Positions 2,978 through 17,133 of a DNA stretch of 64,000 nt are shown here, in pieces. The stretch's first letter is position 1; each line of letters begins with the position of its first letter. Origin of the DNA: Candidatus Nanoarchaeia archaeon (GTDB lineage Archaea; Nanobdellota; Nanobdellia; Pacearchaeales; GW2011-AR1). Under the pieces are notes generated by a model. The model saw nothing but the letters and a program-made list of their open reading frames with translations. It ran no database searches and was not told the DNA's origin. Where the stretch lies: positions 55,662 through 119,661 of the forward strand of contig JBAQGX010000003.1 of the NCBI GenBank assembly GCA_049288015.1, given 5' to 3'. A program made the translations under genes and the position numbers.

Positions 2978-4357
2978 ATGAAATCTAGTATTAAAGAAAA
3001 TATTTCTTCCGGTGCAGGGGATATAAAAAAGTTATGGCATAGACTAAAGAATCGTGATTTTTCTGGAAATTCAGGACTTGCAATACAAAATAGTCTATAT
3101 CAGTTCCTTACAAATGTGTCCACAAAGTTAGGTGCACTAATATTTACTGTAATTTTAGCAAGAGTAATGATGCCTACTTTGTTTGGGGAGTACAGCCTTG
3201 CTCTTTCAGTGGTCTTAATTTTTGTTTCTTTTTCAGACTTAGGTATTGGAGATACGATGATCCGGTTTGTATCAAAAAAAATTGGAGAGAATAATCCCCA
3301 AAAGGCAAAAACTTACACTAAATATTTTATCAAAATAAAATTTGTATTTATATTTTCTATATCTCTACTTATTCTTATTTTAGCAAAAGTTATCTCAAAC
3401 ATTTATCCTAATGAACCTATATATTTGGCTCTTATGGCCGGATCTATCTATATTTTCTTTGTGGGATTTGTTGCATTTTTTATAAATGTTTTAAATGCGA
3501 ATAGTCATTTTAAACCAATATTTTATAGAGAAACAGTCTTTCAAGTTATAAGAATTATATTAATCCCCTTAATTACTATTTATCTTTTGAAAAATAATTT
3601 TAGTAGTGAACTGATTTTATTTTGGAATATTGCAATGTTAGCGGTAACATATTTTCTTTCAGGATTTACCTTTTTATCTTACAAAGAAGTAAATATATTT
3701 TCCATACTTAAACAGAAAGAGCAACTTTCTTCGCCTGAAAAGAAACAAGTAAATAAGTTCATTCTTCTTATGTCTGCTACTGTCTTTTCGGGTGTATTCT
3801 TTGGATATATTGATACCGTAATTCTTGGACTTTTTGTCCAGCCCCAATATATTGGATATTATAGAGCAGCATTTAATCTTATAGCTGCGATAGCCCCACT
3901 AATAACCCTCTACGTTGCAGTATATCCTATTTTTAACAAACTAAACAAAGAAGATCTTGAAATATTATTTAAGAGATCATTCAGGATAACTTTAATCTTA
4001 TCTGTACTAATTTCAATATTTCTATTTGCATTCGCAAATATTATAATTAGTCTTATTTATGGATCTGCATATTCAATGTCTGCCAATATACTCAGGATAT
4101 TTTCAATAGTATTAGTCACATTCCCAATAACTGGAATTTATTATGCTTATTTTGCTTCAATAGGAAAGCCAGAAATTAATACCAGGACGCTTGCTTGGTC
4201 TACAGTAATTAATATTGCCCTTAATATAATTTTGATTAGCTGGCTTGTAAGATATAGCCCTCTTTGGGCTGCATATGGAGCAGCAGCAGCAACGATTATA
4301 AGCAGATGGTTTTATACAATAGCATTAGCAGTTTATAAGAGAAAATTGAAGACCTGA
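2978..4357 (+). CDS. oligosaccharide/polysaccharide flippase (Wzx/MOP superfamily)
   Basis: 459 aa with about 12 predicted TM helices. It has the Wzx-like architecture and opens the glycan cluster. Confidence 0.65.
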   Translation: MKSSIKENISSGAGDIKKLWHRLKNRDFSGNSGLAIQNSLYQFLTNVSTKLGALIFTVILARVMMPTLFGEYSLALSVVLIFVSFSDLGIGDTMIRFVSKKIGENNPQKAKTYTKYFIKIKFVFIFSISLLILILAKVISNIYPNEPIYLALMAGSIYIFFVGFVAFFINVLNANSHFKPIFYRETVFQVIRIILIPLITIYLLKNNFSSELILFWNIAMLAVTYFLSGFTFLSYKEVNIFSILKQKEQLSSPEKKQVNKFILLMSATVFSGVFFGYIDTVILGLFVQPQYIGYYRAAFNLIAAIAPLITLYVAVYPIFNKLNKEDLEILFKRSFRITLILSVLISIFLFAFANIIISLIYGSAYSMSANILRIFSIVLVTFPITGIYYAYFASIGKPEINTRTLAWSTVINIALNIILISWLVRYSPLWAAYGAAAATIISRWFYTIALAVYKRKLKT

Positions 4358-4374
4358 AAAATTTTAATAATTTA

Positions 4375-5571
4375 TTAAACTTTTTTCAAACTTAGTAACT
4401 TATTATATTCTTTTATGCAAGTATCTGCGAGAAAACTATAATCATATTTTTCTGCCATTTTTTTGGAAACCTCCCCCATTTTTTTCATTTTTGATTTGCC
4501 GCTATTATATATTTTTAATAAAGCATCCCTTATTCCCAGAGGATTTTTGAATCCAACAACAAAACCATTTTTACCATTATCAACTAAATAGGGTTGAGCT
4601 GAACTAACAATAGGTAGCCCGCAGGCCATTGCCTCTTGTATTGTAATCATAAATTCTTCTGAGAGGGTTGCAGCAACAAAAAGATCTGATGAAAAGTAAT
4701 AATCATATAAGACTTTTTCTGGAACATTTTTCCTATGAAAAACATCTTTCTCCAATTCTAACCCTTCTTCTTTTACCCATTTATACATATCTTCTTCCAA
4801 GATCCCTCGACCAACCATCAAAAGTTTGGCATTTGGAATATCTTTCTTTAAAAGAGCAAATCCTTTTATGATATCATCGATTCCTTTATCTGGTGCTATC
4901 TGTCCGGTACTTAAAATCAATAAATCATCTTTCTTGATTCCGAGTTCCTTTCTTTTATCTTCATAACTCTTTTTCATATTTTGAATCTGATAAAAATTAA
5001 CTCCATTTGGTAAAAGAAAGATTTTATCTTCTGAAACTCCTAGCTTAGTTATTCTTGGAACTTGGAACTCTCCATCTGCAGCTATAGAATCTGATTTCTC
5101 CAAGACATACTGCCAAGGTTTTCTTAAAAACAACTTAATATATAATTTGCTTATGCCCTTTTGTCTCAAAGTTTCCTTCCCATACCATGCCTCCATACCC
5201 CATGTTTGATAGATTACTGGTTTCCTTTCTTTCTTATGTAAATACCACCAAGCAAACGATTCAGTACTATGTAATATATCAAAATTAGTTTTTTGGAGAT
5301 ATTTCATAAGATTATAACTAAATACAAATTTGTATGGTATGTTAGGAAATATCCTTCTAACCCCTGTATAAACAGGAGGCAGGAAAATATAACTAACACC
5401 ATTATACACGGTTTCTTTGAGTTTAGGATTGTCCTTAAGTTTGGTTGTAACAACAGTGACATTTATACCTTTTTTTACTAACTCTTCAGAAAGGTAGTGA
5501 ACATATTTTGATCCCCCATCAAATGCATTATGAAAATGGAAAGTTTCCATTCTTGGAAAGACTACCCTCAC
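4375..5571 (-). CDS. glycosyltransferase family 4 (GT-B, retaining)
   Basis: 398 aa. The C-terminal GT1/GT4 EX7E-type motif is present (ATLSEEFMITIQEAMACGLPIVSS). Confidence 0.8.
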   Translation of the reverse strand: MRVVFPRMETFHFHNAFDGGSKYVHYLSEELVKKGINVTVVTTKLKDNPKLKETVYNGVSYIFLPPVYTGVRRIFPNIPYKFVFSYNLMKYLQKTNFDILHSTESFAWWYLHKKERKPVIYQTWGMEAWYGKETLRQKGISKLYIKLFLRKPWQYVLEKSDSIAADGEFQVPRITKLGVSEDKIFLLPNGVNFYQIQNMKKSYEDKRKELGIKKDDLLILSTGQIAPDKGIDDIIKGFALLKKDIPNAKLLMVGRGILEEDMYKWVKEEGLELEKDVFHRKNVPEKVLYDYYFSSDLFVAATLSEEFMITIQEAMACGLPIVSSAQPYLVDNGKNGFVVGFKNPLGIRDALLKIYNSGKSKMKKMGEVSKKMAEKYDYSFLADTCIKEYNKLLSLKKV

Positions 5572-6104
5572 TTTACTACTTCTAATATAAAATGAACTTC
5601 ATTTGCAGGGAATAGATTTGCAAAAAAGGCCTCATAAATATTTGGAAATTTATTTGCAAAGAAATAAAGACCAAAAAAAGTATAGGTTCTGCAGAAAACA
5701 ATTTCTTTTTTAAAAAATTTAAATCTTATATCTCCATACTCATGAGATTGAATTTTGCCAATATGATTTTTTCCCTTAGGTTCGAATTCAACATAATCAA
5801 AACTGGTAAAGCTAAAAGGATGTAGATGAGTTAAATCCGAAGCAGCTGCACTTGAAGAATAATATGGAACCCTTATATCAATTCTTCCTCCTTTTTTCAC
5901 AACTCGATGCATTTCATTTATCAACGGGATTATATTCCAAACATGTTCTATAACATGATATGCTATTATCTCGTCTACTGAATCGTCCTTAAAGGGGAGC
6001 TTTTTTTCTAAATTAATAACCATATCTGGATTTACTGTGGACGAAATGTCACAATTCAAATATCCATCTAGCTTTACTTGACCACATCCCAAATTAAGCT
6101 TCAT
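5568..6104 (-). CDS. class I SAM-dependent methyltransferase
   Basis: 178 aa. Motif I LNLGCG is near the N-terminus and the size fits the Methyltransf_11 type. There is a 4-nt overlap with the neighbouring gene. Confidence 0.7.
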   Translation of the reverse strand: MKLNLGCGQVKLDGYLNCDISSTVNPDMVINLEKKLPFKDDSVDEIIAYHVIEHVWNIIPLINEMHRVVKKGGRIDIRVPYYSSSAAASDLTHLHPFSFTSFDYVEFEPKGKNHIGKIQSHEYGDIRFKFFKKEIVFCRTYTFFGLYFFANKFPNIYEAFFANLFPANEVHFILEVVK

Positions 6105-7180
6105 TTTACTAGTACTTCTTTTATAATTTTACAAATCTTCTCAATTTCTTCTTTTTTTAACTTAGAAGAAGAAGGTAAGTTGAGTCCTCTCTTTTCCAAT
6201 TCTTCTGCTACAGGAAAATGTTCTTTAGTAAAATAAGGGGGCATTTGATTCAAGGGTATAAAGAAAGGTCTCGTCTCTATCCCCTCTTTTTCCAATCTTT
6301 CAATAACCTCTTCTTTTTTATTAGTCAGGATTATATTCATCCAATACACATTTTTTCTGTCGTCTTTTTTCGGGATAAATCCCATACTTTTGATACCTTT
6401 TAACAATTGAACATATAAATCTGAATTTTCTTCCCTTATTTTTAAGAAAGACTTTATCTTTTCTAATTGTGCCAAACCTATTGCAGCTTCTATGTTAGTC
6501 ATTCTATAGTTGAATCCAATAACAGAATGCCAATATCTTCTTTCTTTACTCATTCCCTGATTCCTAAATAATTCCATTTTTTCTTTCAATTCTTCATTAT
6601 TTGTAACACACATTCCTCCCTCACCTGTCGTAATAACTTTATTACCAAAGAAACTAAAACATCCGATATCTCCAAAACTACCTACTTTTTTACCATTATA
6701 TTCAGCCCCATGAGCTTCTGCGCAATCTTCTATAACATAAAGATTATGCTTATTTGCAATTTCCATAATCTTTCCCATATCGCAAGGTATTCCATATAAA
6801 TGTACTGGAATTATTGCTTTTGTTTTTTTGGTGATTTTCTTTTCAATTTCATTAGGATCAATTGTCCAGGTATCTCTTTCAGAATCTACAAAAACAGGAG
6901 TAGCATTAACATATTTTACTGCATTTGCAGTTGCAATATAAGTAGACACTGGAACTATGACCTCGTCACCATCTTTTATACCTAATGCGAGTAAAGCAAG
7001 ATGTAATGCCGCAGTTCCATTACAGCAGCCAATTCCATATTTTACTTCGCAAAATTCCGCAAATTCTTTCTCAAATTTGTGAATATATTCTCCTTTGGAC
7101 GAGATCCAACTGCTTTTCACCGCGTCTATTACATATTCTAATTCTTCGTTTCCAAGCAGTGGTTCAGATACCGGAATCAT
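6101..7180 (-). CDS. DegT/DnrJ/EryC1/StrS-family PLP-dependent sugar aminotransferase
   Basis: 359 aa. The N-terminus MIPVSEPLLGNEELEYV..WIS.G is typical of nucleotide-sugar aminotransferases. Confidence 0.8.
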   Translation of the reverse strand: MIPVSEPLLGNEELEYVIDAVKSSWISSKGEYIHKFEKEFAEFCEVKYGIGCCNGTAALHLALLALGIKDGDEVIVPVSTYIATANAVKYVNATPVFVDSERDTWTIDPNEIEKKITKKTKAIIPVHLYGIPCDMGKIMEIANKHNLYVIEDCAEAHGAEYNGKKVGSFGDIGCFSFFGNKVITTGEGGMCVTNNEELKEKMELFRNQGMSKERRYWHSVIGFNYRMTNIEAAIGLAQLEKIKSFLKIREENSDLYVQLLKGIKSMGFIPKKDDRKNVYWMNIILTNKKEEVIERLEKEGIETRPFFIPLNQMPPYFTKEHFPVAEELEKRGLNLPSSSKLKKEEIEKICKIIKEVLVK

Positions 7181-7250
7181 CTTAATAAAAATCTCCCATA
7201 TTTTATGTCTATTTGAAATTATATATAAAGGTTTTTATTCCTTATGGATG

Positions 7251-7763
7251 TTAATTCTGATGTAAAAAATCTAAAATCTTTTTAACAGACTCTTCGACAT
7301 TTTCTTTTGTAGAATTAATCTCTACTTCCGGAGATTCTGGAGGTTCGTAAGGAACGTGTAATCCAATAAAGTTTTTAATTTCCCCAATTTCTGCTTTTGC
7401 ATATAATCCCTTAACATCTCTTTTCTTGCATTCCTCATATGAGCATTTTACATATATTTCAATAAAATTATCTCCTAAAACTCTCCGTGCCATTTCACGG
7501 GATTCTTTGAAAGGCGAGATTATTGGAACTAATATGTAATCCACTATACCCATAGAGTCTTTGCACAACTCAACTATTAATCTATTATTTTCTTTTATAT
7601 CTTCAGGGGTAAATCCTAAATGCTTGTGCAATCTTTCTCTAACATCATCACCATCAAAGATTTCATAGCTTTTGCCAAGATTATCAAATTTTTTTCTGAG
7701 AAGGTCTGTGATGGTACTTTTACCACTTCCAGATAATCCAGTAAACCATAGAACTTGAGTCAT
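7251..7763 (-). CDS. cysC: adenylylsulfate (APS) kinase
   Basis: 170 aa. It has the FTGLSGSGKST P-loop and APS-kinase length. It overlaps the upstream sat fusion by 4 nt. Confidence 0.85.
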   Translation of the reverse strand: MTQVLWFTGLSGSGKSTITDLLRKKFDNLGKSYEIFDGDDVRERLHKHLGFTPEDIKENNRLIVELCKDSMGIVDYILVPIISPFKESREMARRVLGDNFIEIYVKCSYEECKKRDVKGLYAKAEIGEIKNFIGLHVPYEPPESPEVEINSTKENVEESVKKILDFLHQN

Positions 7764-9970
7764 TCTACAAAAACTTTATCTCCCTTCTTTATACTTTCAA
7801 TGATTATATCAGATATTTCTGGTCTCATAAACCATTCTGGAGGTCTTATACCCTTATTTAGCATTTCTCTTGCCTGAGTTCCAGAAATATGCATCTTATT
7901 TTCTTCAGGATAGTCAATAAAATCGGGTTCATGTATGTACTTGTTGTCTAAATCAGAATAAAAAACAGTATCAAATTTTATTATTTCCATACCAAGTTCT
8001 TCTTTTGTAAATTTGTTAAAGATTTTGTGAGAAGCTTGCGGATCATAAAAATTTCCAACTCCTGTATGATCTCTTCCAACAATAAAGTGAGAACATCCGA
8101 AGTTCTTTCTTACTAGTGCTGTAAAGACTGCTTCTCTTGGTCCACCATATCTAGAATATGTTCCCAGAGTTCCAAAAACAACTTTTGATTTAGGATAAAT
8201 GTCTTTAATCATCTTCTCATAAGTTTTGATTATTATATCTGACTCAAAATCTCCAATTTTTTTCTTTCCTATAACCGGATGAACAAATAAACCATCACAA
8301 AGTCCTCTTTTTAGTCCTTCCAATTGTACAAATTCATGAGATCTATGTATAACATTTCTTGTATGAAATCCAACTACTTTGCTCCACCCTCTTTCCGAAA
8401 ATATTTTTCTTGTCTGTTTAGGTGTTAATTCATGACTGTTCTGGGAAATTCTTTTTTTTATTAAGCTAATTTTTCCACCCAAAAAAGTATTTCCTCCATC
8501 CAAAAACTTTTTTACTCCCGGATGATTTTCATCCAAAGTTCCGTAAACTTTTAAGGCGAGGTCACTTTTGTTCAAATTATATATCTCTTCTATATGAAGT
8601 ATGGCGTAGACTTCATTATCTTTAGATAACGATACATCTTCATTTTCTTCAAAGTTATTGGATATTTTTTCATCTATTTTTAATAAAATTGGTAAAGGCC
8701 AAATTGCATTGTTGGGTAATCGCATGTTATCTGCAACAGATTCTGCTTCATTCTTTTTCATAAAACCTTCAATAGGACTAAATGAACCCATTGCAATTTG
8801 TTCCACATCCATTAAAGTTTCTTCATCAATCTCAATTTTTTTATTTGGAATTATTCCATTATAATTTGGAAAGAATCTATTTACAAGTTTACCTCCATGA
8901 GGTTTTACCAATATTTCTGGAACTTTATCTGATTTTATATAGTTAGAATTAATTATCTTAGTAACTAAATCTTCTCCTTTTTGACTATTCAAAAAATTAA
9001 CTTGCTTCATCAGTACAGATAGCATATTAACTGTCTCAACAGGGTATTTTCCGACAGCAGTTTCTTTTGTTAATGCAATACCACTAACCCCATCTAAAAG
9101 TGTATTTATTATATCATTAACCTCTGCCTTATTTGGTTTTAATGCCATAGACATTTGTTCCAAGGTATTTGTTGCAACAAAAATTTCTTTTCCAAGATCT
9201 CTAACATTCTTTATTATTAACTTTTGAATAAAAGGAATCTTTTCAAGAGGAATTTGTGAACTTAAATCTCCTCGGTCAATAAGTATTCCATCAGAAACTT
9301 TTGCAATTTCAATAAAATTTTCTAGACCTTTTTTTGATTCTATCTTTGAGTATACTATTGCTTCTGGATATATCTTTCTAAATTTTGATACACTTTCAGG
9401 ATCTTCCATAAAAGATAGCGTGAAGTGGTTTATATTATGCTTTTTTGCAAGTTCAATAGCAGTGTGATCTTTTTTACTAAAAGGAGGTAAATTAAAGGTA
9501 GGACTATCCACTAAAACTGCTTTCTTTCCTCCTACTAGTCCGCCAATTATAACTTCGCACAATATATATCCTTCAACTATTTTTGAAGTATCAAAAACTC
9601 TAAGCAGAACCGAATTAAAATCTATAGAGATTAAATCCCCTACATCTAATTTTTTTATAATCCCGCTTGGATTTAAAAAAAGATTATTAGCATCGCATTT
9701 AATAGGATCTCCAAATAATTTAATCAAGTCCCCATCATTAAATCTAATCTCTTCGGTGTTGCCGGATCTTATTTGTGACCCTTCGGTATCTAGTATTATA
9801 GGTACTCCATAATCTATAATATCCCTTATTTTTTCATCAATTTCGTTTTCCTCAGTATGAGAGAGATTTATCCTAAAAAAATCAACTCCGCTATTTTTTA
9901 ACTTCCCAAGAGTTTCTGGATTATTAGATGAAGGACCTATAGTGCATATGATTTTTGTGCCATTTATCAT
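7760..9970 (-). CDS. sat: bifunctional fusion: N-terminal pyruvate-kinase-like barrel domain plus C-terminal sulfate adenylyltransferase (ATP sulfurylase)
   Basis: 736 aa. The N-terminal ~330 aa carry PK motifs (KIICTIGP, FRINLSHT, DTEGSQIR, KIESKKGLEN, DRGDLS, TKETAVGKYP). The C-terminal ~400 aa carry ATP-sulfurylase motifs (GFHTRNVIHRSHE, IVGRDHTGVG). Confidence 0.8.
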   Translation of the reverse strand: MINGTKIICTIGPSSNNPETLGKLKNSGVDFFRINLSHTEENEIDEKIRDIIDYGVPIILDTEGSQIRSGNTEEIRFNDGDLIKLFGDPIKCDANNLFLNPSGIIKKLDVGDLISIDFNSVLLRVFDTSKIVEGYILCEVIIGGLVGGKKAVLVDSPTFNLPPFSKKDHTAIELAKKHNINHFTLSFMEDPESVSKFRKIYPEAIVYSKIESKKGLENFIEIAKVSDGILIDRGDLSSQIPLEKIPFIQKLIIKNVRDLGKEIFVATNTLEQMSMALKPNKAEVNDIINTLLDGVSGIALTKETAVGKYPVETVNMLSVLMKQVNFLNSQKGEDLVTKIINSNYIKSDKVPEILVKPHGGKLVNRFFPNYNGIIPNKKIEIDEETLMDVEQIAMGSFSPIEGFMKKNEAESVADNMRLPNNAIWPLPILLKIDEKISNNFEENEDVSLSKDNEVYAILHIEEIYNLNKSDLALKVYGTLDENHPGVKKFLDGGNTFLGGKISLIKKRISQNSHELTPKQTRKIFSERGWSKVVGFHTRNVIHRSHEFVQLEGLKRGLCDGLFVHPVIGKKKIGDFESDIIIKTYEKMIKDIYPKSKVVFGTLGTYSRYGGPREAVFTALVRKNFGCSHFIVGRDHTGVGNFYDPQASHKIFNKFTKEELGMEIIKFDTVFYSDLDNKYIHEPDFIDYPEENKMHISGTQAREMLNKGIRPPEWFMRPEISDIIIESIKKGDKVFVE

Positions 9971-10049
9971 ATTCCTAAACTTGGTTATTTCCTTTTAAAG
10001 CTTATGAAATTTAGACATACTTTTAAGTAACTTTTAAAAATAAAATATC

Positions 10050-10835
10050 ATGGTAATTACAATGGATGATAATATACTTTGGATTCATTTGCATCCTCCT
10101 AGAACTGGAGGTAACACCATTGTTGAGACGATACTTAAACACTTTCCAAGAGAGGAAATATATATGACCTCTCTAGCAAGATATGGGATAGATACAGAGA
10201 AATTTGATAAGAATAAGGTCAGATTTATATTGGGACATGCTACTTATTACGGGATAGATAAATTGGTCCCTCAAAGAGTTCCAAGATATTTTGTCATTCT
10301 AAGGGATCCTGCAGAAAGGCTTGTTTCACACTATAATGCTAAGATGCAAGATGAAGAGAAGAAGATACCATTTGATAAGTGGTATAAAAATCAGATAAAA
10401 AACGAGATGGTTAATTTTCTAGACTTAAAATTTAGGGGAAGTGAATCTAGCAGAATGCGTGTTCCCAGGTTTATTTTGCCCTTAATAAAGAGGGTTAGCT
10501 ATAAAACAGTCTACTTTTTTCAAACAATTTTATTCAATTTGTTTAATCTCAATAAAAAGAACGATTTGAAAAAATTGGAGAATGCAAAAAAGTTGTTGGA
10601 TCTGTGTTGGTTTGTCGGAACTACTGAAGGGAGTAAAAAAGATTTTAAATTTATTTTTAATTCTATCGGGTTAAAAGATGTAAAATATAAAGATAATGGC
10701 GTAAGTAAAAAAGTTGTTAAAATAGATAATCAGCTTAGAGAAAGGATCTATAAAGATAATTCTTTAGATGTTGAATTATATAAATATGGATTAGAACTTA
10801 ATAAAAGACTAAGAGAAAAATATAAAATTAAATAA
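10050..10835 (+). CDS. PAPS-dependent sulfotransferase family protein
   Basis: 261 aa. The 5'-PSB-like motif is HLHPPRTGGNT. The 3'-PB-like motif is ILRDPAERLVSHY, of the RDPxxRxxS type. It is divergent from sat-cysC. Confidence 0.65.
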   Translation: MVITMDDNILWIHLHPPRTGGNTIVETILKHFPREEIYMTSLARYGIDTEKFDKNKVRFILGHATYYGIDKLVPQRVPRYFVILRDPAERLVSHYNAKMQDEEKKIPFDKWYKNQIKNEMVNFLDLKFRGSESSRMRVPRFILPLIKRVSYKTVYFFQTILFNLFNLNKKNDLKKLENAKKLLDLCWFVGTTEGSKKDFKFIFNSIGLKDVKYKDNGVSKKVVKIDNQLRERIYKDNSLDVELYKYGLELNKRLREKYKIK

Positions 10836-10857
10836 TAAAGTTATCTGTTTTCTTATT

Positions 10858-11910
10858 TTATTTATCTACAGAAGATATTCCTTTCTCTTTTAAAATTCTT
10901 AGATCATTTTGAACCATCATATTTACTAATTCTTTAAAGCTGGTTTTCGATTTCCATTTTAATTCTCTTTTAGCTTTAGAAGGATCCCCTAAAAGCAAAT
11001 CTACTTCTGCTGGTCTAAAAAATTTTTGATCTACTTTTACAACCACTCTTTCATGGTATTTTCCTACTTCATTAATTCCTTTTCCTTCCCAGATAATGGG
11101 CATGTCCACAATTTTGAATGCTTCTTCAACAAAATCTCTTACAGTATGATTTTCTCCCATAGATATAACATAATCTTCAGGCTTCTCTTGCTGAAGCATA
11201 AGCCACATTGCTTCCACGTAATCTCCTGCGAATCCCCAATCTCTTTTGGCGTCAAGATTACCAAGAGAAATAGGAAAATCTTGATATCCTAATTTTATCT
11301 TAGCTACGGAGTGCGAAATTTTTCTTGTGACAAATTGTTTACCTCTTATTGGTGATTCGTGATTAAACAAAATTCCACTACATGCAAATAACCCGTAACT
11401 TTCTCTATAATTTACTGTAATCCAATGACCGAATAATTTTGATACGCCATAAGGACTTCTTGGATAAAAAGGAGTCTTTTCTGTTTGCGGAACTTGCTGA
11501 ACTTTTCCAAACATTTCACTACTAGAGGCCTGATAAAATTTGATCTTGGGATTAATGAGCCTAATGGCTTCCAATATTCTTAGAACGCTCAATCCAGTAA
11601 TCTCTGCGGTAGATTCTGGTTGCGTCCAGGAAGAAGGAACAAAAGATTGTGAACCAAGATTATAAAACTCTGTAGGTTCAATTTCCTTCAATAACCTTAT
11701 TATAGAGCCTGTATCTGTTAAATCACCTTCAACTAAATGAATCTTATATTTTATCTCCCCTATTCTCTCGAATACATCTGTACTGGTACGTCTATGCATT
11801 CCAAATACTTCATATCCTTTTGAAAGTAAGAATTCAGCAAGATAGGTTCCGTCTTGTCCAGTAATGCCTGTAATTATAGCTTTTTTGTTTTGACCTTCAG
11901 ATTTATCCAT
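10858..11910 (-). CDS. gmd: GDP-mannose 4,6-dehydratase
   Basis: 350 aa. The N-terminus [28 protein letters not shown] matches the GMD hallmark, and the catalytic YxxxK is present. Confidence 0.9.
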
Positions 11911-12123
11911 TAGAAACCATATGAGAAATGATTTAAAAACTTTCTGAATTACAAACCTTTAATATAACTCTTCTAGAACTTAAATTCATCTGTAAAATTT
12001 ATCAACTAAGATTGTCATTGCAAGGTCTAAATTTTTTGAAACATACGGATGTAAATTTGATAGCTTATTTTCCTTTTTATTCAACATATTTGGGGTTACA
12101 ATAATTGGATTATTATCTAATTC

Positions 12124-12603
12124 TCAAAATTTCAATTCCCCTTCACCTTGTGCATAATAAATACCCATATAATCTCTAACTCCTTTCCCTCCTTTATTGA
12201 TATTCTTAGAAATTGTGGTCCATCCACAGTCCGCTCCTCCGAAATAAACAAAGTCCGAAAGATTTAGATTGGCTTCTCTTTTTGCATTAGCACTTAAAGC
12301 ATTTCTTAATCCAATAGTGCCTCTAGGTATACCTCCCCCTATTGGCCATAAAAGATCTTTTGCAGGATGACCCTTTCGGGTAATTAACAATATGCCTCTT
12401 TCATTTTTTTCATTTAAACATGCGATAAGACCATCAACACTTCCACGCACAAGGTAGGATCTTGCAGAATAATAATCTTTATCTGAGATTAATCCTGGAC
12501 TAAAACTGTTCTCGTCAAACGGAGACCCTTCATTTTCAATAAAAGTAATAGGCTCAAAGATTTTTGAGTATTTTCTTATTTCTGATGCAGTAATATTATC
12601 CAT
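12124..12603 (-). CDS. hypothetical protein (possible degenerate NUDIX-like fold)
   Basis: 159 aa. A ...LLWPIGGGIPRG... segment is only loosely Nudix-box-like. It sits next to gmd. Confidence 0.35.
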   Translation of the reverse strand: MDNITASEIRKYSKIFEPITFIENEGSPFDENSFSPGLISDKDYYSARSYLVRGSVDGLIACLNEKNERGILLITRKGHPAKDLLWPIGGGIPRGTIGLRNALSANAKREANLNLSDFVYFGGADCGWTTISKNINKGGKGVRDYMGIYYAQGEGELKF

Positions 12604-12680
12604 TCCTTACTCTATTTTAATTGCTTTAAAAGTTTTATTATGTGTTATTTAACAACCCTTATAAATTGATAATTTGATTA

Positions 12681-13781
12681 ATGTTTATGAAAATTGTAAT
12701 GATTTACCCAAGTTCGTTATCGGAAAAAGGAATTTCAAAATATTCTCAAGATTTAATTAGTAACATAAGAAAGCAAGATGTAGACATAGACGAAATTACA
12801 TTCACCCAAGGAAAGTCTTCTACTTTATTTAAACAAATACCTAAAATCTTAAAATACGACGTAATACACATTCAGCATGAGTATAATCTCCTAGGAGGTT
12901 ATGGAATACCTTACTTTGCATTATTTGGAATATTAGGTCTTTTTAAGAAAAAAAGAATTATAACAACAATGCATACAGTTCCATCTTTAAAAGGTGAATT
13001 TCAAAGTGGAAAAATCAAAACTTTTTTGAGAAAAGTTCTTTATAAATTACAAAATAGACTGATAAATGTTAATTCTAATAAAATAATAGTTCATTCGGAA
13101 GCGTTTAAAAGAATTTTATCAGAAGAGTATCATGTTTCAGAAGAAAAAATAAATGTTCTTACTCATGCAATAATTGAAGATATAAAAATCACAAATAAAA
13201 ATAAGGCGAAGAAAGACTTGAAATTAGAAGGTAATGTCTATTTACTTATTGGGACTATGATACGAGACCATGGGCATGATATAATCTTAAGGCAAGCTGA
13301 CAAAATTGGTAAAACTATTTTAGTTGCTACCAACCCCCTCGCGATTAACTACAGAAACGAGGAAAAAATAAAAGAATTTTTAAAACTAAATCAAGATATT
13401 GTTTCACAAAATCATTTTGAGAATTTTGTACGGTTTGATCTCGGACAAATTTCTTATGAAAAATGGTGGGAATATTTTTCCGCAGCAGATTTAATTTTGT
13501 TACCTTATAGAGGGGGAATAGGTAGTGGGATTTTTGCGGACGCAATGGCAGCACAAAAACCAGTAATTTCTAGTAATGTCCCTTATTTTAAAGAGATTGC
13601 AAAAGACTATGATTGTATAAAAATTGCAGATACAGATAATGATTTTGCTGAAATAATTAAAGAATCAATGAAACCAGAAAATTATAAAAAAATGATAAAA
13701 GGATGTGAAAAATTTTTGAAGGAAAATGGATTAACTCCTATTTCAAGAAAATATAAGGAAATTTATAAATCATTATTATGA
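12681..13781 (+). CDS. glycosyltransferase family 4
   Basis: 366 aa. The C-terminal GT4 motif region is present (LILLPYRGGIGSGIFADAMAAQKPVISSN). Confidence 0.75.
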   Translation: MFMKIVMIYPSSLSEKGISKYSQDLISNIRKQDVDIDEITFTQGKSSTLFKQIPKILKYDVIHIQHEYNLLGGYGIPYFALFGILGLFKKKRIITTMHTVPSLKGEFQSGKIKTFLRKVLYKLQNRLINVNSNKIIVHSEAFKRILSEEYHVSEEKINVLTHAIIEDIKITNKNKAKKDLKLEGNVYLLIGTMIRDHGHDIILRQADKIGKTILVATNPLAINYRNEEKIKEFLKLNQDIVSQNHFENFVRFDLGQISYEKWWEYFSAADLILLPYRGGIGSGIFADAMAAQKPVISSNVPYFKEIAKDYDCIKIADTDNDFAEIIKESMKPENYKKMIKGCEKFLKENGLTPISRKYKEIYKSLL

Positions 13782-14620
13782 AAATAGCAATAATAGGAGC
13801 AAATGGTTTTTTAGGTAAAAAGTTGAAAGAATACTTTTCTAAAAACAATGAGGTTATATCTGCAGGAATTAATGGAATAGGGGATATAATACCCTTAGAT
13901 GCCTCTGATAAGAAAGCTGTTGAAGATTTTATTTCTAAATACAATCCAGAAGTAGTCATAGATACTGTTGCCTTATCAAGTTCAGTGGCATGCGAAAAAG
14001 ATCCAAAGCTTTGTAAAAAACTAAATTATATTTCTGCAAAGAATATCGCAGATTCTTGTAAGAAAAATAATTCTGAAATGGTCTTTATTTCATCTTCGTA
14101 TGTTTTTGATGGTAATAAGGGAAGTTACAAAGAAGATGATCCAGTTTTACCTACAAATCAATATGCAATCACTAAGATTATGGCTGAAAAGGAAGTATCA
14201 AAATTATCTAGATTTTTGATCATAAGGGTTGAAATGATGTACGGACTAGATCAAAAAAAGATTAGATTTGGGACAGGGGGATTTAATAAAGAAATTATTG
14301 AAGTAGGATATCCAAAGCAAGTAAGAAACCCGCTTTTCGTTAATGATATTCCAAAGATAATAAATGAACTAATAAATAAAAGACAAAAGGGAATTTTCCA
14401 TTTAGCTGGCCCGGACAAGATTTCATTACTAGACTTTATAATGAAATTGTCTAAATTAGAAAAAGCAGAGAAAAAGGTTAAGATTGTAGATAGTTCTAAT
14501 TGGGCCATTAAATCTCCTAAAAATTCAACATTAGATACGTCTAAAATTAATTCCTTGGATATACACACTACTCCCCTAGATCTTTCATTAAGTGAAATAA
14601 AAAAAGAAATTATTAATTAG
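13778..14620 (+). CDS. RmlD-like NAD(P)H-dependent nucleotide-sugar 4-ketoreductase (SDR)
   Basis: 280 aa. It has the N-terminal glycine-rich loop MKIAIIGANGFLGK and a YAITK (YxxxK) catalytic motif. It overlaps the upstream GT gene. Confidence 0.65.
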   Translation: MKIAIIGANGFLGKKLKEYFSKNNEVISAGINGIGDIIPLDASDKKAVEDFISKYNPEVVIDTVALSSSVACEKDPKLCKKLNYISAKNIADSCKKNNSEMVFISSSYVFDGNKGSYKEDDPVLPTNQYAITKIMAEKEVSKLSRFLIIRVEMMYGLDQKKIRFGTGGFNKEIIEVGYPKQVRNPLFVNDIPKIINELINKRQKGIFHLAGPDKISLLDFIMKLSKLEKAEKKVKIVDSSNWAIKSPKNSTLDTSKINSLDIHTTPLDLSLSEIKKEIIN

Positions 14621-15881
14621 AGTTAATATCTATTACTCTCAATCTAGGGAAAGGTAATATAAATTTCCCTCCATTATTCAAGTATTCTTTCTCATCATCG
14701 CCAATGCCTTTGAATATATGCCAAATTAAAACTAATTGATAGTCAGGGTTGTATTTTTTTATATTATCTGGGGAAGTGATGGGAATTAATGAACCTACAG
14801 TTAATTTTCCCTCTTTATCTGGGTTTCTGTCAAAGATACAATCAATTAAGTCTGGGCCAAGATTAAAATATTGGAGAGTTGTATTTCCCCTAGTAGACGC
14901 TCCTAATCCACATATTATTTTACCGGACTTTTTCTCATTTTTTAAAAAAGTCAATAATTCTTCTTTTATAGAATCAATCCTAGATGCGAAATCTAAGTAA
15001 GGCTTTTTAGTGTTAAGTCCTATTATCTTTTCTTTTTCATTTATCTCCTTCAAGTAATCTTTGTCCGATTCTGAAGAATTAATTGTCTCATTGTCTTTAA
15101 ATTTAATATAAGTTCTTATGCTTCCTCCATTTACTTCATTTTGTTCTATCTTAAAAATTTCTAGGTTATATTTATCTAAGAGGTTTCTAAGAGATAAAAG
15201 TGAATAGTACTCTCTGTGCTCATGGCAGATATTATCTACTGCATTATTTTCAAGCATAGCAATTAAATAATTTTGCTGAATTATAAAAATCCCATTTTTA
15301 TCTAAAACTGAAACAATATCTTTTAAAAATTTATTTGGATTATCAAGATCATAAAACATTGAAATAGCAGTTATTATTTTTGCTTTGCTATTTTCAGATT
15401 TTGAAAAATCATCTGCATTAAAAAAATTATTTATTATTTTATATCCTTTGCTGCTTGCCTCTTTAGCTACATTTTTTGAAGGTTCAAATCCAATAATATT
15501 GATTCCTTTGCTTTTATCATAAGAATCTAACAGTGTTCCATCATTGCACCCTATATCTATAACAGTATCTCCCTTCCTTAATTGGACTATCTTCTGAGCT
15601 TTCTCAACTATATCCTTTAGATCCTCTCTAATCATTCTGTTTATTCCAGATTTATACCAATACTGGTCTCCCCACATAGAACTAGCAGGAGCATTGTGTT
15701 TTAATTGTAATAACTTGCAATTTTCACATAAAACTAATTCTAATGGAACGAGGGGGATATCTCTTTGTTCTTCCTCAGAGCTGACAAAATTTGTAACATA
15801 TTGATTACCTAAGGATATTATGGGAGTTAACTCTACAGAACCACACGATCTACATTCCTTTATTTCTAAAGTCTTTTCCAT
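14613..15881 (-). CDS. sugar C-methyltransferase-like protein (Zn-ribbon + SAM MTase + C-MT C-terminal domain)
   Basis: 422 aa. The N-terminus has CxxC...CxxC (CRSCGS...CENCKL), followed by the SAM motif VIDIGCNDG. The architecture resembles TylCIII/NovU-type sugar 3-C-methyltransferases. Confidence 0.55.
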   Translation of the reverse strand: MEKTLEIKECRSCGSVELTPIISLGNQYVTNFVSSEEEQRDIPLVPLELVLCENCKLLQLKHNAPASSMWGDQYWYKSGINRMIREDLKDIVEKAQKIVQLRKGDTVIDIGCNDGTLLDSYDKSKGINIIGFEPSKNVAKEASSKGYKIINNFFNADDFSKSENSKAKIITAISMFYDLDNPNKFLKDIVSVLDKNGIFIIQQNYLIAMLENNAVDNICHEHREYYSLLSLRNLLDKYNLEIFKIEQNEVNGGSIRTYIKFKDNETINSSESDKDYLKEINEKEKIIGLNTKKPYLDFASRIDSIKEELLTFLKNEKKSGKIICGLGASTRGNTTLQYFNLGPDLIDCIFDRNPDKEGKLTVGSLIPITSPDNIKKYNPDYQLVLIWHIFKGIGDDEKEYLNNGGKFILPFPRLRVIDINSN

Positions 15882-16020
15882 CTATTATTTGCTCGTAAAT
15901 TTAACTGCAAGCCAATTTTATTGGGAATTTTCCCTTTTTAATGATTTCTGTATGTCTATACTTTGAAGAATTGTTCTTCATAATCTTTTTAAATAATGGA
16001 CGCAACCTATCAACCAGAAG

Positions 16021-17133
16021 ATGAAACATCTAAAAGTATTTATCAATCCAGGGATCCACCCTCAGTTTAGAGAGATAATTGATTTTCCACCAGAAGATGT
16101 AGAATATGTTTATGATCCTATAGTTGGAGATCACAATAATGAATTAACTAGGAGAAAGAGAGAAGTTATTTCTTTTGTACAGAGATATCTCCAAGTTCCT
16201 AGGATGGCAAAAATAGAGAATGAGGATAAATTTGATCTTATCCATTCCACGAGAGGAATTCTAATAAGAAATAAGAAACCATGGGTTATTGACTTAGAAT
16301 CTGGTGCTGCCTTTTCCGGTTTGGAATGGACAACATTAAAGAAACCCAGAATGAGAAGACTGATAAGAAAATATCTTTCCTCTCCTTATTGTAAAAAAAT
16401 AATGCCCCAAAGCGAAGCGGCTAGGAAAACTCTGCTTGAAAATGTTGACTGTTTTGGTTTTGAAGATAAAATAGAGACAGTTTATTTGGCTTATCATACA
16501 ACTAAACTAGAAAGAAAAAAATCAGATAAAGTTAGATTATCTTTTATCGGAAGAGGATTCTTCGAAAAAGGAGGTAATGATGTGCAAGAGGCGTTTAAGA
16601 TATTAGATAAGAAATATCCTGGTAAGCTTCAATTAAAAGTCAAATGTAATGTTCCAGAAGACCACAAATTGGATATGAACAATGTGATTTATTTGCCAAA
16701 AATAGATGATCCTTTAGAATTTTATAAAGAAATATTTGGAGATTGCGATATTTATGTACAACCAACCACTGTGGATAGCTTTGGTGTTACTATATTAGAA
16801 GCAATGTCAACAGGACTACCCATAGTTTGTACAGATGATTTTACTCTGCCAGAATTAGTAGAAGACGGCCATAATGGGTTTTTGGTGAAAAGTCCTGTTC
16901 ATTGGTATCCTTATGGTATAAAAGGGGAATGGAAAGAATATACAAAAAAAGCAGAAGAGGAACATCCAGAGACTGTTCAAGAATTAGTTGAAAAAATTTC
17001 CCTGCTTATAGAAAATCCAAAATTAAGAGAAAAAATGGGAAAAAATAGTTTTGATATCGTTGAATCTGGGAAATTTTCGATAAAAGAAAGGAACAAAAAA
17101 TTAAGAAAAATTTATGATGAAGCTCTTAGGTAA
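16021..17133 (+). CDS. glycosyltransferase family 4
   Basis: 370 aa. The GT4 C-terminal motif is present (FGVTILEAMSTGLPIVCTDDFTLPELVEDGHNGFLV). Confidence 0.75.
   Translation: MKHLKVFINPGIHPQFREIIDFPPEDVEYVYDPIVGDHNNELTRRKREVISFVQRYLQVPRMAKIENEDKFDLIHSTRGILIRNKKPWVIDLESGAAFSGLEWTTLKKPRMRRLIRKYLSSPYCKKIMPQSEAARKTLLENVDCFGFEDKIETVYLAYHTTKLERKKSDKVRLSFIGRGFFEKGGNDVQEAFKILDKKYPGKLQLKVKCNVPEDHKLDMNNVIYLPKIDDPLEFYKEIFGDCDIYVQPTTVDSFGVTILEAMSTGLPIVCTDDFTLPELVEDGHNGFLVKSPVHWYPYGIKGEWKEYTKKAEEEHPETVQELVEKISLLIENPKLREKMGKNSFDIVESGKFSIKERNKKLRKIYDEALR

What the first reader, a model, noticed from the sequence alone, without database searches (positions are those of the whole stretch)
7760..9970. Unusual fusion: pyruvate-kinase-like barrel domain N-terminal to ATP sulfurylase
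The first ~330 aa carry essentially every PK A/B-domain signature (KIICTIGP, FRINLSHT, DTEGSQIR, KIESKKGLEN, DRGDLS, TKETAVGKYP) but lack the PK C-terminal domain. The last ~400 aa form a canonical sulfate adenylyltransferase (HTRNVIHRSHE, GRDHTGVG). I know of Sat fused to APS kinase or to GTPase, but not to PK. A PEP-driven domain could regenerate ATP from the ADP released by the adjacent APS kinase and pull the unfavourable sulfurylase reaction. Alternatively it is a repurposed PEP-dependent phosphotransferase.
Basis: seen in the sequence. Interest (0 to 1): 0.7.

Follow-up and report, generated by a model that had tools for sequence, protein, structure and literature searches.

The report
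Pyruvate-kinase module fused to ATP sulfurylase
A DPANN-type archaeon encodes one protein joining a pyruvate-kinase-like domain without its regulatory domain to the sulfate-activating enzyme ATP sulfurylase; the design recurs in hundreds of uncultured microbes, I found no paper on it, and it most likely uses phosphoenolpyruvate to keep ATP high and ADP low while making the sulfate donor for sugar-chain sulfation.

Summary
Window 7760..9970(-) is one uninterrupted 736-aa ORF. It holds a full PK A/B barrel (residues 4-314) with no PK C-domain, then a PUA-like domain (355-505) and an ATP-sulfurylase catalytic domain (514-725). Its stop overlaps the APS-kinase start (ATGA), and a sulfotransferase is transcribed divergently, all inside a glycan-synthesis cluster.

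It is not an assembly artefact. At least 120 protein clusters and at least 535 loci in species-representative genomes from more than 15 phyla encode the same PK-like clade. The clade occurs as PK-Sat, PK-Sat-CysC, PK-CysC or stand-alone.

All PK catalytic, metal and PEP/nucleotide-contact residues checked are invariant. The clade also carries a fixed non-canonical hinge/K+-site signature (E114/Q117) and other changes near the active site. The fused Sat has His in place of the sulfate-contacting Gln (FHTRN).

Best explanation (inferred, not shown): a constitutively active PEP:ADP phosphotransferase that regenerates ATP and removes ADP for PAPS synthesis. This would be a natural version of the PK/PEP trick needed for PAPS synthesis in vitro.

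I found no paper describing it. Verdict: a new variant of a known kind, of moderate to high interest.

The parts
7760..9970 (-). Whole PK-Sat fusion gene (736 aa)
   Evidence: Single ORF. Three Pfam domains. AF2 model has mean pLDDT 93.5 and pTM 0.89.
8981..9970 (-). PK-like A/B domain (residues 1-330): TIM barrel plus lid, no C-domain
   Evidence: PF00224 at residues 4-314, 212.9 bits. Aligns with rabbit, human and S. aureus PK over the whole A/B region. Residues R33, N35, S37, D61, T62, R68, K150, K209, E211, D235, T267 and E303 equal rabbit R72, N74, S76, D112, T113, R119, K206, K269, E271, D295, T327 and E363, and are invariant or nearly so in the family.
9476..9766 (-). PK B (lid) domain, residues about 69-165, flanked by the hinge loop D61-T62-E63-G64-S65-Q66-I67-R68
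   Evidence: Beta-rich segment in the AF2 model. Hinge signature is T113/E114/Q117/S120 rather than the canonical T/K/E/T or L/Q/K/L.
8909..8986 (-). Poorly conserved linker (residues about 329-354) between the PK A-domain and the PUA-like domain
   Evidence: Low conservation in the family alignment. Lies between the Pfam domain boundaries.
8456..8908 (-). PUA-like N-terminal domain of ATP sulfurylase (residues 355-505)
   Evidence: PF14306, 145.7 bits.
7796..8431 (-). ATP-sulfurylase catalytic domain (residues 514-725), with FHTRN, HRSH and GRDHTGVG motifs
   Evidence: PF01747, 248.1 bits. NF003166 scores 419.8 against a cut-off of 387. E = 1.7e-91 to the M. thermolithotrophicus ATPS 8a8d. 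Structural TM 0.92 to 8a8g.
7251..7763 (-). APS kinase (CysC) gene, probably translationally coupled (ATGA overlap with the PK-Sat stop)
   Evidence: PF01583 at 163.4 bits and TIGR00455 at 185.6 bits against a cut-off of 138.7. Junction sequence read.
9971..10049 (.). 79-bp AT-rich divergent intergenic region between PK-Sat and the sulfotransferase; presumed to hold the promoters of both genes
   Evidence: Sequence read. Promoter function is inferred from position only and was not tested.
10050..10835 (+). Sulfotransferase, the presumed consumer of the PAPS
   Evidence: PF03567 Sulfotransfer_2, 41.9 bits against a cut-off of 22.
2978..18050 (.). Surrounding glycan-biosynthesis cluster: flippase, GT4/GT1 glycosyltransferases, methyltransferases, DegT aminotransferase, GDP-mannose 4,6-dehydratase, RmlD-like reductase, epimerase
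   Evidence: Pfam scans.

Best explanation
The gene encodes a two-enzyme protein that, with the translationally coupled APS kinase downstream, forms a PEP-driven PAPS-synthesis module for the neighbouring sulfotransferase and glycan cluster. The C-terminal half is a working ATP sulfurylase (ATP + sulfate -> APS + PPi). The N-terminal half is a working pyruvate kinase stripped of its allosteric and tetramerisation C-domain, so it is probably constitutively active. It would transfer phosphate from PEP to the ADP released by APS kinase (APS + ATP -> PAPS + ADP). That returns ATP, the substrate of both steps. [quoted passage not shown] The net reaction would be sulfate + ATP + PEP -> PAPS + PPi + pyruvate, adding the large negative free energy of PEP cleavage to an otherwise unfavourable activation. 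Shown here: the architecture, the conservation of catalytic residues, the genomic linkage and the breadth of distribution. Inferred: that both domains are active, that ADP is the acceptor, and that the coupling matters kinetically.
For: 1. The full PK A/B domain is present with every checked catalytic, Mg2+, K+ and PEP/nucleotide-contact residue, and these are invariant across 119 aligned homologs, across 150 representatives at 50% identity and across 80 genomes from more than 15 phyla.
2. The Sat half scores above the curated Sat cut-offs and superposes on an active archaeal ATPS at TM 0.92.
3. The same PK clade is fused to Sat-CysC (9 of 80 loci; about 19 of the 120 listed hits) and, without Sat, directly to CysC in P0146 and P0198. 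That ties it to the ADP-producing step.
4. CysC is fused or lies within 6 kb in 35 of 66 PK-Sat loci. In the window the two genes overlap as ATGA.
5. Sulfotransferases and glycan genes flank the module in the window and in L001, L005, L008, L012, L014, L020, L021, L023 and L072.
6. There is biochemical precedent. In vitro PAPS synthesis by PAPSS1 yields almost no PAPS unless PK/PEP removes ADP, because of the E-ADP-APS dead-end complex (PMC9885120; PMC3734648). ADP also binds ATP sulfurylase in nearly the same pose as APS.
7. Fusing a 'pulling' enzyme to Sat has a known analogue in Sat-pyrophosphatase fusions (PMC2275785).
8. In rabbit PK, K114Q keeps full kcat, so the hinge substitutions need not abolish catalysis.
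Against: No activity was measured. PK is fused mainly to Sat, which does not itself release ADP. In 31 of 66 PK-Sat loci there is no CysC within 6 kb. In four of four Woesearchaeota loci a stand-alone clade PK sits beside a sulfotransferase with no Sat or CysC nearby, which simple ATP recycling does not obviously explain. Ten Thermoplasmata stand-alone copies have the same signature; the two whose neighbourhoods I annotated show no sulfation genes. The clade has fixed substitutions near the PK active site (K114E, E117Q, A292D, G297S, Q328N, S361T/A, G362K/A) and at the sulfate-contacting Gln of Sat (Q->H). These could signal altered specificity.
Confidence: 0.6

Rival explanations
1. Repurposed PK-like transferase. 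The domain still uses PEP and Mg2+, but its physiological acceptor or chemistry differs from ADP -> ATP. It might recycle the GDP/UDP released by the cluster's glycosyltransferases. It might act on a sulfonucleotide-related species such as PAP or APS. At the extreme, it might catalyse sulfuryl rather than phosphoryl transfer.
For: Clade-fixed substitutions ring the active site: E114, Q117, D292, S297, N328, T/A361 and K/A362. This is a third hinge/K+-site signature that matches neither described PK class. The fused Sat has a co-occurring Q->H change at the sulfate-binding residue. Stand-alone copies are kept next to sulfotransferases and glycosyltransferases without Sat or CysC. From memory and not verified here: canonical PK accepts several NDPs and catalyses slow sulfuryl transfer from sulfoenolpyruvate.
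Against: All residues that bind the PEP phosphate and carboxylate, both metals and the nucleotide phosphates (R72, K269, E271, D295, T327, R119, K206, N74, H77) are unchanged. Fusion partners are always adenine-nucleotide enzymes (Sat, CysC), never glycosyltransferases or sugar-nucleotide enzymes. The substituted positions lie in the hinge and second shell, and K114Q is benign in rabbit PK.
Confidence: 0.17
2. Ordinary housekeeping pyruvate kinase that happens to be fused. The domain is simply the cell's glycolytic PK, possibly its only one in reduced DPANN/CPR genomes, and the fusion has no specific kinetic role in sulfation.
For: Catalytic residues are intact. No second PK lies in the 64-kb window. 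Thermoplasmata carry stand-alone copies, and the two loci annotated have unrelated neighbours. Many hosts are small-genome DPANN or CPR organisms.
Against: The clade forms a distinct long branch apart from canonical PKs. It also occurs in bacteria with contigs of 4-14 Mb, including Chloroflexota, Acidobacteriota and Rhodospirillales. Those are expected to have a canonical PK, although I could not check. A fusion partner, where present, is always from the PAPS pathway. The gene lies in accessory glycan clusters, and the mixed phyla in the tree suggest lateral transfer. That pattern is atypical for a core glycolytic gene.
Confidence: 0.12
3. Non-catalytic regulatory or scaffold domain. The PK-like half binds PEP, ADP or ATP as an energy sensor, or drives oligomerisation. 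Precedents are the APS-kinase-like allosteric domain of fungal ATP sulfurylase and the degenerate Sat-like domain on some APS kinases.
For: Sat and CysC family enzymes have repeatedly recruited inactive paralogous domains (PMC3779200). Degenerate Sat-like-CysC genes sit next to PK-Sat in Chloroflexota. pTM 0.89 suggests a fixed inter-domain arrangement.
Against: Catalytic Lys, Thr and Glu and both metal ligands are invariant down to about 36-40% identity, across two domains of life and in stand-alone proteins. That is the pattern of an enzyme under selection for catalysis. The truly degenerate Sat-like domains, by contrast, have lost their motifs.
Confidence: 0.09
4. Assembly or annotation artefact: two adjacent genes joined by a frameshift, a chimeric contig or a missed stop.
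For: None found. One relative (L017) shows a split Sat, consistent with a local frameshift in that assembly only.
Against: The ORF is uninterrupted. The same fusion appears in at least 120 clusters from independent assemblies and sources, in 66 of 80 species-representative loci, and as a confident single-chain model.
Confidence: 0.01

Closest known systems
Bifunctional PAPS synthases and Sat-APS kinase fusions (human PAPSS1/2; Aquifex aeolicus Sat-CysC, PDB 2gks)
   Same: Sulfate-activation enzymes joined on one polypeptide. Relatives of this gene carry CysC at the C-terminus (PK-Sat-CysC), and here CysC is probably translationally coupled. The Sat fold matches.
   Different: None of the described forms carries a pyruvate-kinase domain. 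The extra module acts on ADP/ATP rather than on a sulfur intermediate.
ATP sulfurylase-inorganic pyrophosphatase fusions of stramenopiles and haptophytes (PMC2275785)
   Same: The same design logic: an enzyme that removes a by-product is fused to Sat to pull an unfavourable equilibrium.
   Different: That partner removes PPi from the Sat step. This one would remove ADP from the kinase step and regenerate ATP, at the expense of PEP. The lineages also differ (eukaryotes versus archaea and bacteria).
CysD-CysN GTPase-coupled ATP sulfurylase
   Same: Sulfate activation is energetically boosted by cleavage of a second high-energy phosphate compound (established knowledge).
   Different: The sulfurylase fold is unrelated (CysD), and the coupling is conformational through a GTPase rather than through nucleotide regeneration. 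No homology to the PK domain.
Canonical pyruvate kinase (EC 2.7.1.40)
   Same: Same A/B-domain fold and the same catalytic, metal and substrate-contact residues.
   Different: It lacks the C-domain. It falls below all NCBIfam PK cut-offs. Its hinge signature T/S113-E114-Q117-S/T120 matches neither the K+-dependent nor the K+-independent class. It has DRGDLS for ARGDLG, ATN for ATQ and (T/A)(K/A)E for SGE. It forms a separate long branch.
Engineered PAPS-synthesis cascades with PK/PEP ATP regeneration (PMC9885120)
   Same: The same enzyme set (Sat + APS kinase + PK) and the same rationale: remove ADP to avoid the E-ADP-APS dead end and recycle ATP.
   Different: Those are mixtures of separate commercial enzymes in vitro. 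Here the combination is genetically hard-wired and widespread in nature.

Membership tests
Pyruvate kinase (PF00224 + PF02887; TIGR01064) | A/B barrel domain matching PF00224 over its full length | tested here: met
   212.9 bits, profile positions 3-328 of 328. E = 7e-48 to solved PKs.
Pyruvate kinase (PF00224 + PF02887; TIGR01064) | Catalytic and ligand residues R72, N74, S76, D112, T113, R119, K206, K269, E271, D295, T327, E363 (rabbit numbering) | tested here: met
   All present in the query and invariant or nearly so in 119 homologs, 150 representatives and 80 genomes.
Pyruvate kinase (PF00224 + PF02887; TIGR01064) | C-terminal alpha/beta (allosteric and tetramer-interface) domain | tested here: not met
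   No PF02887 hit. PK model alignments end at about position 336 of 476, and a PUA_2 domain follows.
Pyruvate kinase (PF00224 + PF02887; TIGR01064) | Score above the curated equivalog cut-off | tested here: not met
   TIGR01064 scores 247.5 against 306.4. All other NCBIfam PK models are also below their cut-offs.
Pyruvate kinase (PF00224 + PF02887; TIGR01064) | Hinge/K+-site signature of a described class: T113/K114/E117/T120 or L113/Q114/K117/(L,I,V)120 | tested here: not met
   T62/E63/Q66/S69 in the query. E114 is in 117 of 119 and Q117 in 118 of 119 homologs. Classes are as defined in PMC8835810.
Pyruvate kinase (PF00224 + PF02887; TIGR01064) | PEP + ADP -> pyruvate + ATP activity | not testable with these tools
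   Needs an enzyme assay.
Homo-oligomeric ATP sulfurylase (Sat; TIGR00339 / NF003166) | Score above curated cut-offs, with PUA-like plus catalytic domains | tested here: met
   NF003166 scores 419.8 against 387 and TIGR00339 scores 355.1 against 322.95. PF14306 and PF01747 both hit. TM 0.92 to 8a8g.
Homo-oligomeric ATP sulfurylase (Sat; TIGR00339 / NF003166) | HxxH and GRDHxG nucleotide and ribose motifs | tested here: met
   H542-R-S-H545 and G632-RDHTGVG are invariant in family alignment A1.
Homo-oligomeric ATP sulfurylase (Sat; TIGR00339 / NF003166) | Gln of the Q-T-R-N loop that hydrogen-bonds the sulfate of APS | tested here: not met
   His536 in the query. FH[TS]RN occurs in 165 of 166 PK-fused Sat domains, against FQTRN in 8a8d and 1v47. 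The role of this Gln is from PMC3779200. R and N of the loop are kept. The effect on activity is unknown.
Bifunctional PAPS synthase (Sat + APS kinase on one chain) | APS kinase domain on the same polypeptide | tested here: not met
   In the window CysC is a separate gene that overlaps by 4 bp. It is met in relatives, the PK-Sat-CysC proteins of about 905-950 aa.
APS kinase (CysC; TIGR00455), for the downstream gene 7251..7763 | Score above the curated cut-off | tested here: met
   185.6 bits against 138.7. The sequence begins MTQVLWFTGLSGSGKST, which contains a GxxGxGKS/T stretch.

The most novel reading that the evidence does not exclude
The PK-like clade is not a plain ADP recycler. It would be a re-specialised PEP-dependent enzyme that co-evolved with a His-variant sulfurylase and takes a direct part in sulfonucleotide metabolism. 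For example, it might act on PAP, APS or another nucleotide by-product of sulfotransfer, or transfer a sulfuryl group. That would explain why stand-alone copies are kept next to sulfotransferases without Sat or CysC, and why seven positions near the active site are fixed differently from all described PKs.
Probability: 0.12. Interest if true: 0.85.

Novelty: new variant of a known kind. Interest (0 to 1): 0.62.

Why it matters
If the best explanation holds, nature has hard-wired the same ATP-regeneration trick that biochemists must add to make PAPS efficiently.

- It would be a previously undescribed way of energising sulfate activation, alongside PPi hydrolysis and CysN GTP hydrolysis. It is spread across more than 15 archaeal and bacterial phyla, especially the small-genome DPANN and CPR lineages that are thought to be energy-limited.
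- It defines a third, C-domain-less class of pyruvate kinase with its own hinge/K+-site signature.
- It offers compact PK-Sat(-CysC) enzymes for biocatalytic PAPS production.
- It points to widespread glycan sulfation in uncultured microbes.
- It also carries a practical warning. Sources label the protein either 'pyruvate kinase' or 'sulfate adenylyltransferase'. Homology-based metabolic reconstructions could therefore credit these organisms with a glycolytic PK or with sulfur-energy metabolism they may not have.

Tried and rejected
- **Frameshift or chimera:** rejected, because the fusion recurs in independent assemblies.
- **N-domain is a different TIM-barrel family:** rejected, because PK is the only family it matched in Pfam-A at E <= 0.01 and the match covers the full profile.
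- **Second, canonical PK in the window:** none found. A 64-kb window cannot settle the question for the whole genome.
- **Literature:** five searches combining pyruvate kinase with ATP sulfurylase or sulfate adenylyltransferase, plus fusion, DPANN, domain architecture and similar terms, found no description of the fusion. The library lacks most subscription-journal papers, so this is not proof of absence.
- **AFDB fold search** for named full-length matches: the library was unavailable.
- **Distance between the PK and Sat active sites:** could not be measured, because model coordinates are not exposed.
- **All clade members are sulfation-linked:** rejected. The two annotated Thermoplasmata stand-alone loci have no sulfation genes nearby.
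- **PK domain replaces APS kinase** (PEP-dependent 3'-phosphorylation of APS): considered unlikely, because CysC is so often fused or adjacent.
- **Second Sat genes next to PK-Sat in Chloroflexota:** checked. They are degenerate Sat-like scaffolds on CysC, not a redundant sulfurylase.
- **Not done:** I ran no further search on whether unfused Sats also carry FHTRN, because the best-hit list would be dominated by fused proteins.
Full report
**1.

Pfam places a pyruvate-kinase barrel domain at residues 4-314. That match covers positions 3-328 of the 328-position profile at 212.9 bits. A PUA-like domain follows at 355-505 and an ATP-sulfurylase catalytic domain at 514-725.

NCBIfam puts the C-terminal half above the curated sulfate adenylyltransferase cut-offs (NF003166 419.8 against 387; TIGR00339 355.1 against 322.95). 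Every PK model falls below its cut-off, because alignments stop near position 336 of about 476. So the PK C-domain is absent.

An AlphaFold2 model built on 86 homologs is confident throughout, with mean pLDDT 93.5 and pTM 0.89. In the PDB the Sat part superposes on the Methanothermococcus thermolithotrophicus enzyme at TM 0.92, and the PK part superposes on PK A/B domains. No solved chain spans both.

**2. Surroundings**

The next gene downstream, 7251..7763(-), is an APS kinase (TIGR00455 185.6 against 138.7). Its ATG overlaps the PK-Sat stop as ATGA, which suggests translational coupling. Across a 79-bp AT-rich spacer lies a divergently transcribed sulfotransferase at 10050..10835.

The surrounding region from about 3 to 18 kb encodes a flippase, GT4/GT1 glycosyltransferases, a DegT-type aminotransferase, GDP-mannose 4,6-dehydratase, an RmlD-like reductase, an epimerase and methyltransferases. 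This is a glycan-synthesis cluster that includes sulfation.

The window itself is about 31% GC. It carries an operon-like run of small basic ORFs next to a 478-aa membrane ORF at 22-35 kb, which I read as an archaeal ribosomal-protein/SecY cluster without scanning it. The nearest relatives of the gene are Pacearchaeota, Woesearchaeota and Nanoarchaeota MAGs. The host is therefore most likely a DPANN archaeon.

**3. It is not an artefact, and it is widespread**

A search of about 5.8 billion proteins returned at least 120 clusters with the same PK + PUA_2 + ATP-sulfurylase content at 48-84% identity. About 19 of them also carry APS kinase at the C-terminus, at 893-950 aa when full length. Sources name them 'sulfate adenylyltransferase' or 'pyruvate kinase'.

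An exhaustive HMMER search with the PK domain alone shows the composition of the top 150 representatives at 50% identity:
- 79 PK-Sat (plus 2 more in which the Sat match is split in two)
- 3 PK-Sat-CysC
- 2 PK-CysC without Sat (P0146, P0198)
- 62 with no Sat or CysC match, including many complete proteins of about 330-360 aa and some fragments

The best 80 come from DPANN lineages, Thermoplasmata, Methanosarcinales, Patescibacteria/CPR, Omnitrophota, Planctomycetota, Chloroflexota, Alpha-, Gamma- and Deltaproteobacteria, Acidobacteriota, Gemmatimonadota, Acidimicrobiia and Bdellovibrionota. All of them are MAGs or single-cell assemblies.

Among those 80 loci, 57 are PK-Sat, 9 are PK-Sat-CysC and 14 are stand-alone. 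A separate CysC lies within 6 kb in 26 of the 57 PK-Sat loci.

**4. State of the active sites**

I mapped the query onto rabbit-muscle PK through the HMMER alignment. The correspondences are R72=R33, N74=N35, S76=S37, D112=D61, T113=T62, R119=R68, K206=K150, K269=K209, E271=E211, D295=D235, T327=T267 and E363=E303. All are invariant or nearly so in 119 aligned homologs, in the 150 representatives and in the 80 genomes. This pattern indicates selection for catalysis.

The clade also has fixed differences from canonical PK:
- K114->E and E117->Q
- ARGDLG -> DRGDLS
- ATQ -> ATN
- SGE -> TKE in the DPANN-type subclade, or AAE/SAE in the broader clade

Canonical PKs with K/E, A..G, Q and SG appear only from about rank 130 of the hit list. 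A rough neighbour-joining tree without bootstrap support puts the clade on a long branch apart from them.

The literature defines residues 113-120 as the A/B hinge loop and K+-site signature. K+-dependent PKs are T113/K114/E117/T120 and K+-independent ones are L113/Q114/K117/(L,I,V)120. K114Q keeps full kcat in the rabbit enzyme (PMC8835810). K115 of human PKM pairs with E118 at the hinge and modulates lid closure (PMC12685146). The clade's T/S-E-Q-S/T combination is therefore a third, undescribed signature. It more plausibly changes cation activation or lid dynamics than abolishes chemistry.

In the Sat half, HxxH and GRDHxG are intact. However, the Gln that hydrogen-bonds the sulfate oxygens of APS (Gln199 in A. 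vinosum; PMC3779200) is His. FH[TS]RN occurs in 165 of 166 PK-fused Sat domains, against FQTRN in the two solved unfused archaeal and bacterial enzymes I aligned. I could not determine whether unfused Sats elsewhere share this His.

**5. Context in relatives**

Fused genes sit in glycan clusters with sulfotransferases (L001, L008, L012, L014), often directly followed by CysC (L003/L004 and many loci). The PK-CysC fusion P0146 is likewise in a sulfotransferase and glycosyltransferase cluster. A stand-alone copy, P0127, neighbours an APS-kinase fusion gene.

In Chloroflexota, PK-Sat sits next to a Sat-like-CysC gene whose Sat-like domain has lost the RN, HxxH and GRDH motifs. So PK-Sat supplies the only functional sulfurylase there.

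Two observations complicate the picture. First, in all four Woesearchaeota loci with a stand-alone clade PK (L020, L021, L023, L072), a sulfotransferase lies one or two genes away among glycosyltransferases, but no Sat or CysC occurs within 6 kb. L023 also reproduces the gene order of the PK-Sat locus L001 without the Sat half. Second, ten Thermoplasmata stand-alone copies share the exact signature; the two whose neighbourhoods I annotated have no sulfation neighbours.

In the tree, the stand-alone and PK-CysC forms are nested among PK-Sat forms, and phyla are intermixed. This suggests that PK-Sat is the older state, with later fission, rearrangement and lateral transfer. That reading is tentative.

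**6. Most likely mechanism**

The parsimonious reading is that the N-terminal half is an active, unregulated pyruvate kinase dedicated to the adenine-nucleotide economy of PAPS synthesis. PAPS synthesis consumes two ATP and releases PPi and ADP. APS kinases are trapped by an enzyme-ADP-APS dead-end complex, and APS binds the ADP-loaded enzyme about 20-100 times more tightly than the apoenzyme (PMC3734648). ADP also binds ATP sulfurylase in nearly the same pose as APS.

In a published cascade, PAPSS1 made almost no PAPS and accumulated ADP unless PK/PEP was present (PMC9885120). A PK domain tethered to Sat, and in many lineages to CysC, would do the same in vivo. It would convert ADP back to the shared substrate ATP at the site of use, and it would add the large free-energy drop of PEP cleavage (established thermodynamics, not computed here) to an unfavourable activation.

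The Sat-pyrophosphatase fusions of stramenopiles and haptophytes are a documented analogue of fusing a 'pulling' enzyme to Sat (PMC2275785). Loss of the C-domain fits a module that should run whenever ADP appears, rather than respond to glycolytic effectors. That last point is inference.

Shown: the architecture, residue conservation, linkage and distribution. Inferred: activity, ADP as the acceptor, and kinetic benefit. I put this explanation at about 0.6.

**7. Rivals**

- **Repurposed PEP-dependent transferase (about 0.17).** The clade-fixed substitutions in both halves and the sulfotransferase-adjacent stand-alone copies keep this alive. The acceptor might be other NDPs from glycosyltransferases, PAP or APS-related species, or the chemistry might even be sulfuryl transfer.
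- **Housekeeping PK that merely happens to be fused (about 0.12).** This is disfavoured by the distinct clade, the accessory-cluster location, the exclusively PAPS-pathway fusion partners and its presence on 4-14-Mb bacterial contigs. I could not check whole genomes for a canonical PK.
- **Non-catalytic sensor or scaffold (about 0.09).** This is disfavoured by invariant catalytic residues. The Sat-like domains that really are degenerate have lost theirs.
- **Artefact (about 0.01).** Excluded.

**8. Comparison with the known, and novelty**

It works like a PAPS synthase with a built-in ATP-regeneration unit. It is a bona fide member of the Sat family, with one altered sulfate-contact residue. 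It is a PK homolog that fails three PK membership criteria: the C-domain, the curated score cut-offs and the hinge signature.

Five full-text searches found no paper describing a PK-Sat or PK-CysC fusion, although the proteins are abundant in databases under generic names. DPANN metabolic reconstructions score PYK and Sat independently by homology (PMC8091004), so this gene could be double-counted.

I rate it a new variant of a known kind. The parts and the logic are familiar. The combination, its breadth and the distinct PK subclass appear undescribed. Interest is about 0.6: a specialist would find it a neat and testable surprise with biocatalytic value. The score would be higher if the PK-like domain turns out to have altered chemistry.

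Noticed in passing
L043:10057-11769, L061:2819-4516, L083:1898-3517: In Chloroflexota a Sat-like-CysC gene sits next to PK-Sat. Its Sat-like domain has lost the RN loop, HxxH and GRDH motifs, so it looks like an inactive scaffold on an APS kinase.
   Followed up: partly
L020, L021, L023, L072 (stand-alone PK-like genes at about 6.0-7.0 kb, or 3.9-4.9 kb in L023): Woesearchaeota stand-alone clade PK genes always have a sulfotransferase one or two genes away but no Sat or CysC within 6 kb. L023 mirrors the gene order of PK-Sat locus L001 minus the Sat half.
   Followed up: partly
L035, L040, L049, L051, L054, L055, L064, L066, L077, L079: A monophyletic Thermoplasmata subclade of stand-alone short PK-like proteins (about 345-365 aa) has the identical active-site signature. 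The two loci annotated (L049, L064) have no sulfation genes nearby; their neighbours include an integrase, a PAS histidine kinase and an oxidoreductase.
   Followed up: partly
L007:3325-4206 (-): A 293-aa protein combining a CTP_transf_like (nucleotidyltransferase) domain with APS kinase lies next to a stand-alone PK-like gene. It may be a minimal alternative sulfate-activating enzyme.
   Followed up: no
window:12124-12603 (-): A 159-aa ORF inside the glycan cluster has no Pfam match.
   Followed up: no
L009 (contig DATJPO010000062.1, 3.7 kb): The closest genome-collection relative (80% identity) is labelled Omnitrophota but groups with DPANN sequences in the tree. The short contig is probably misbinned.
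   Followed up: partly
L046:8231-9562, L074:8185-9642, L080:11009-12367, L038:2385-3308: The APS-kinase matches lie in ORFs two to three times longer than a normal CysC, which implies further uncharacterised CysC fusions downstream of PK-Sat.
   Followed up: no
window:37429-37513 (+): ARAGORN calls a tRNA-Ser(TGA) here, but Rfam's tRNA model did not report it at the gathering threshold.
   Followed up: no
window:54000-64000: GC rises from about 0.31 to 0.37-0.41. The region holds large ORFs (54277-57102, 941 aa; 60293-62740, 815 aa) and several small ORFs with hydrophobic N-termini, possibly surface or pilin-like proteins.
   Followed up: no
L008:12539-13276: In an 8.8-Mb bacterial contig, PK-Sat is flanked by a sulfotransferase and a TauE-family anion transporter, with no CysC within 10 kb.
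   Followed up: no
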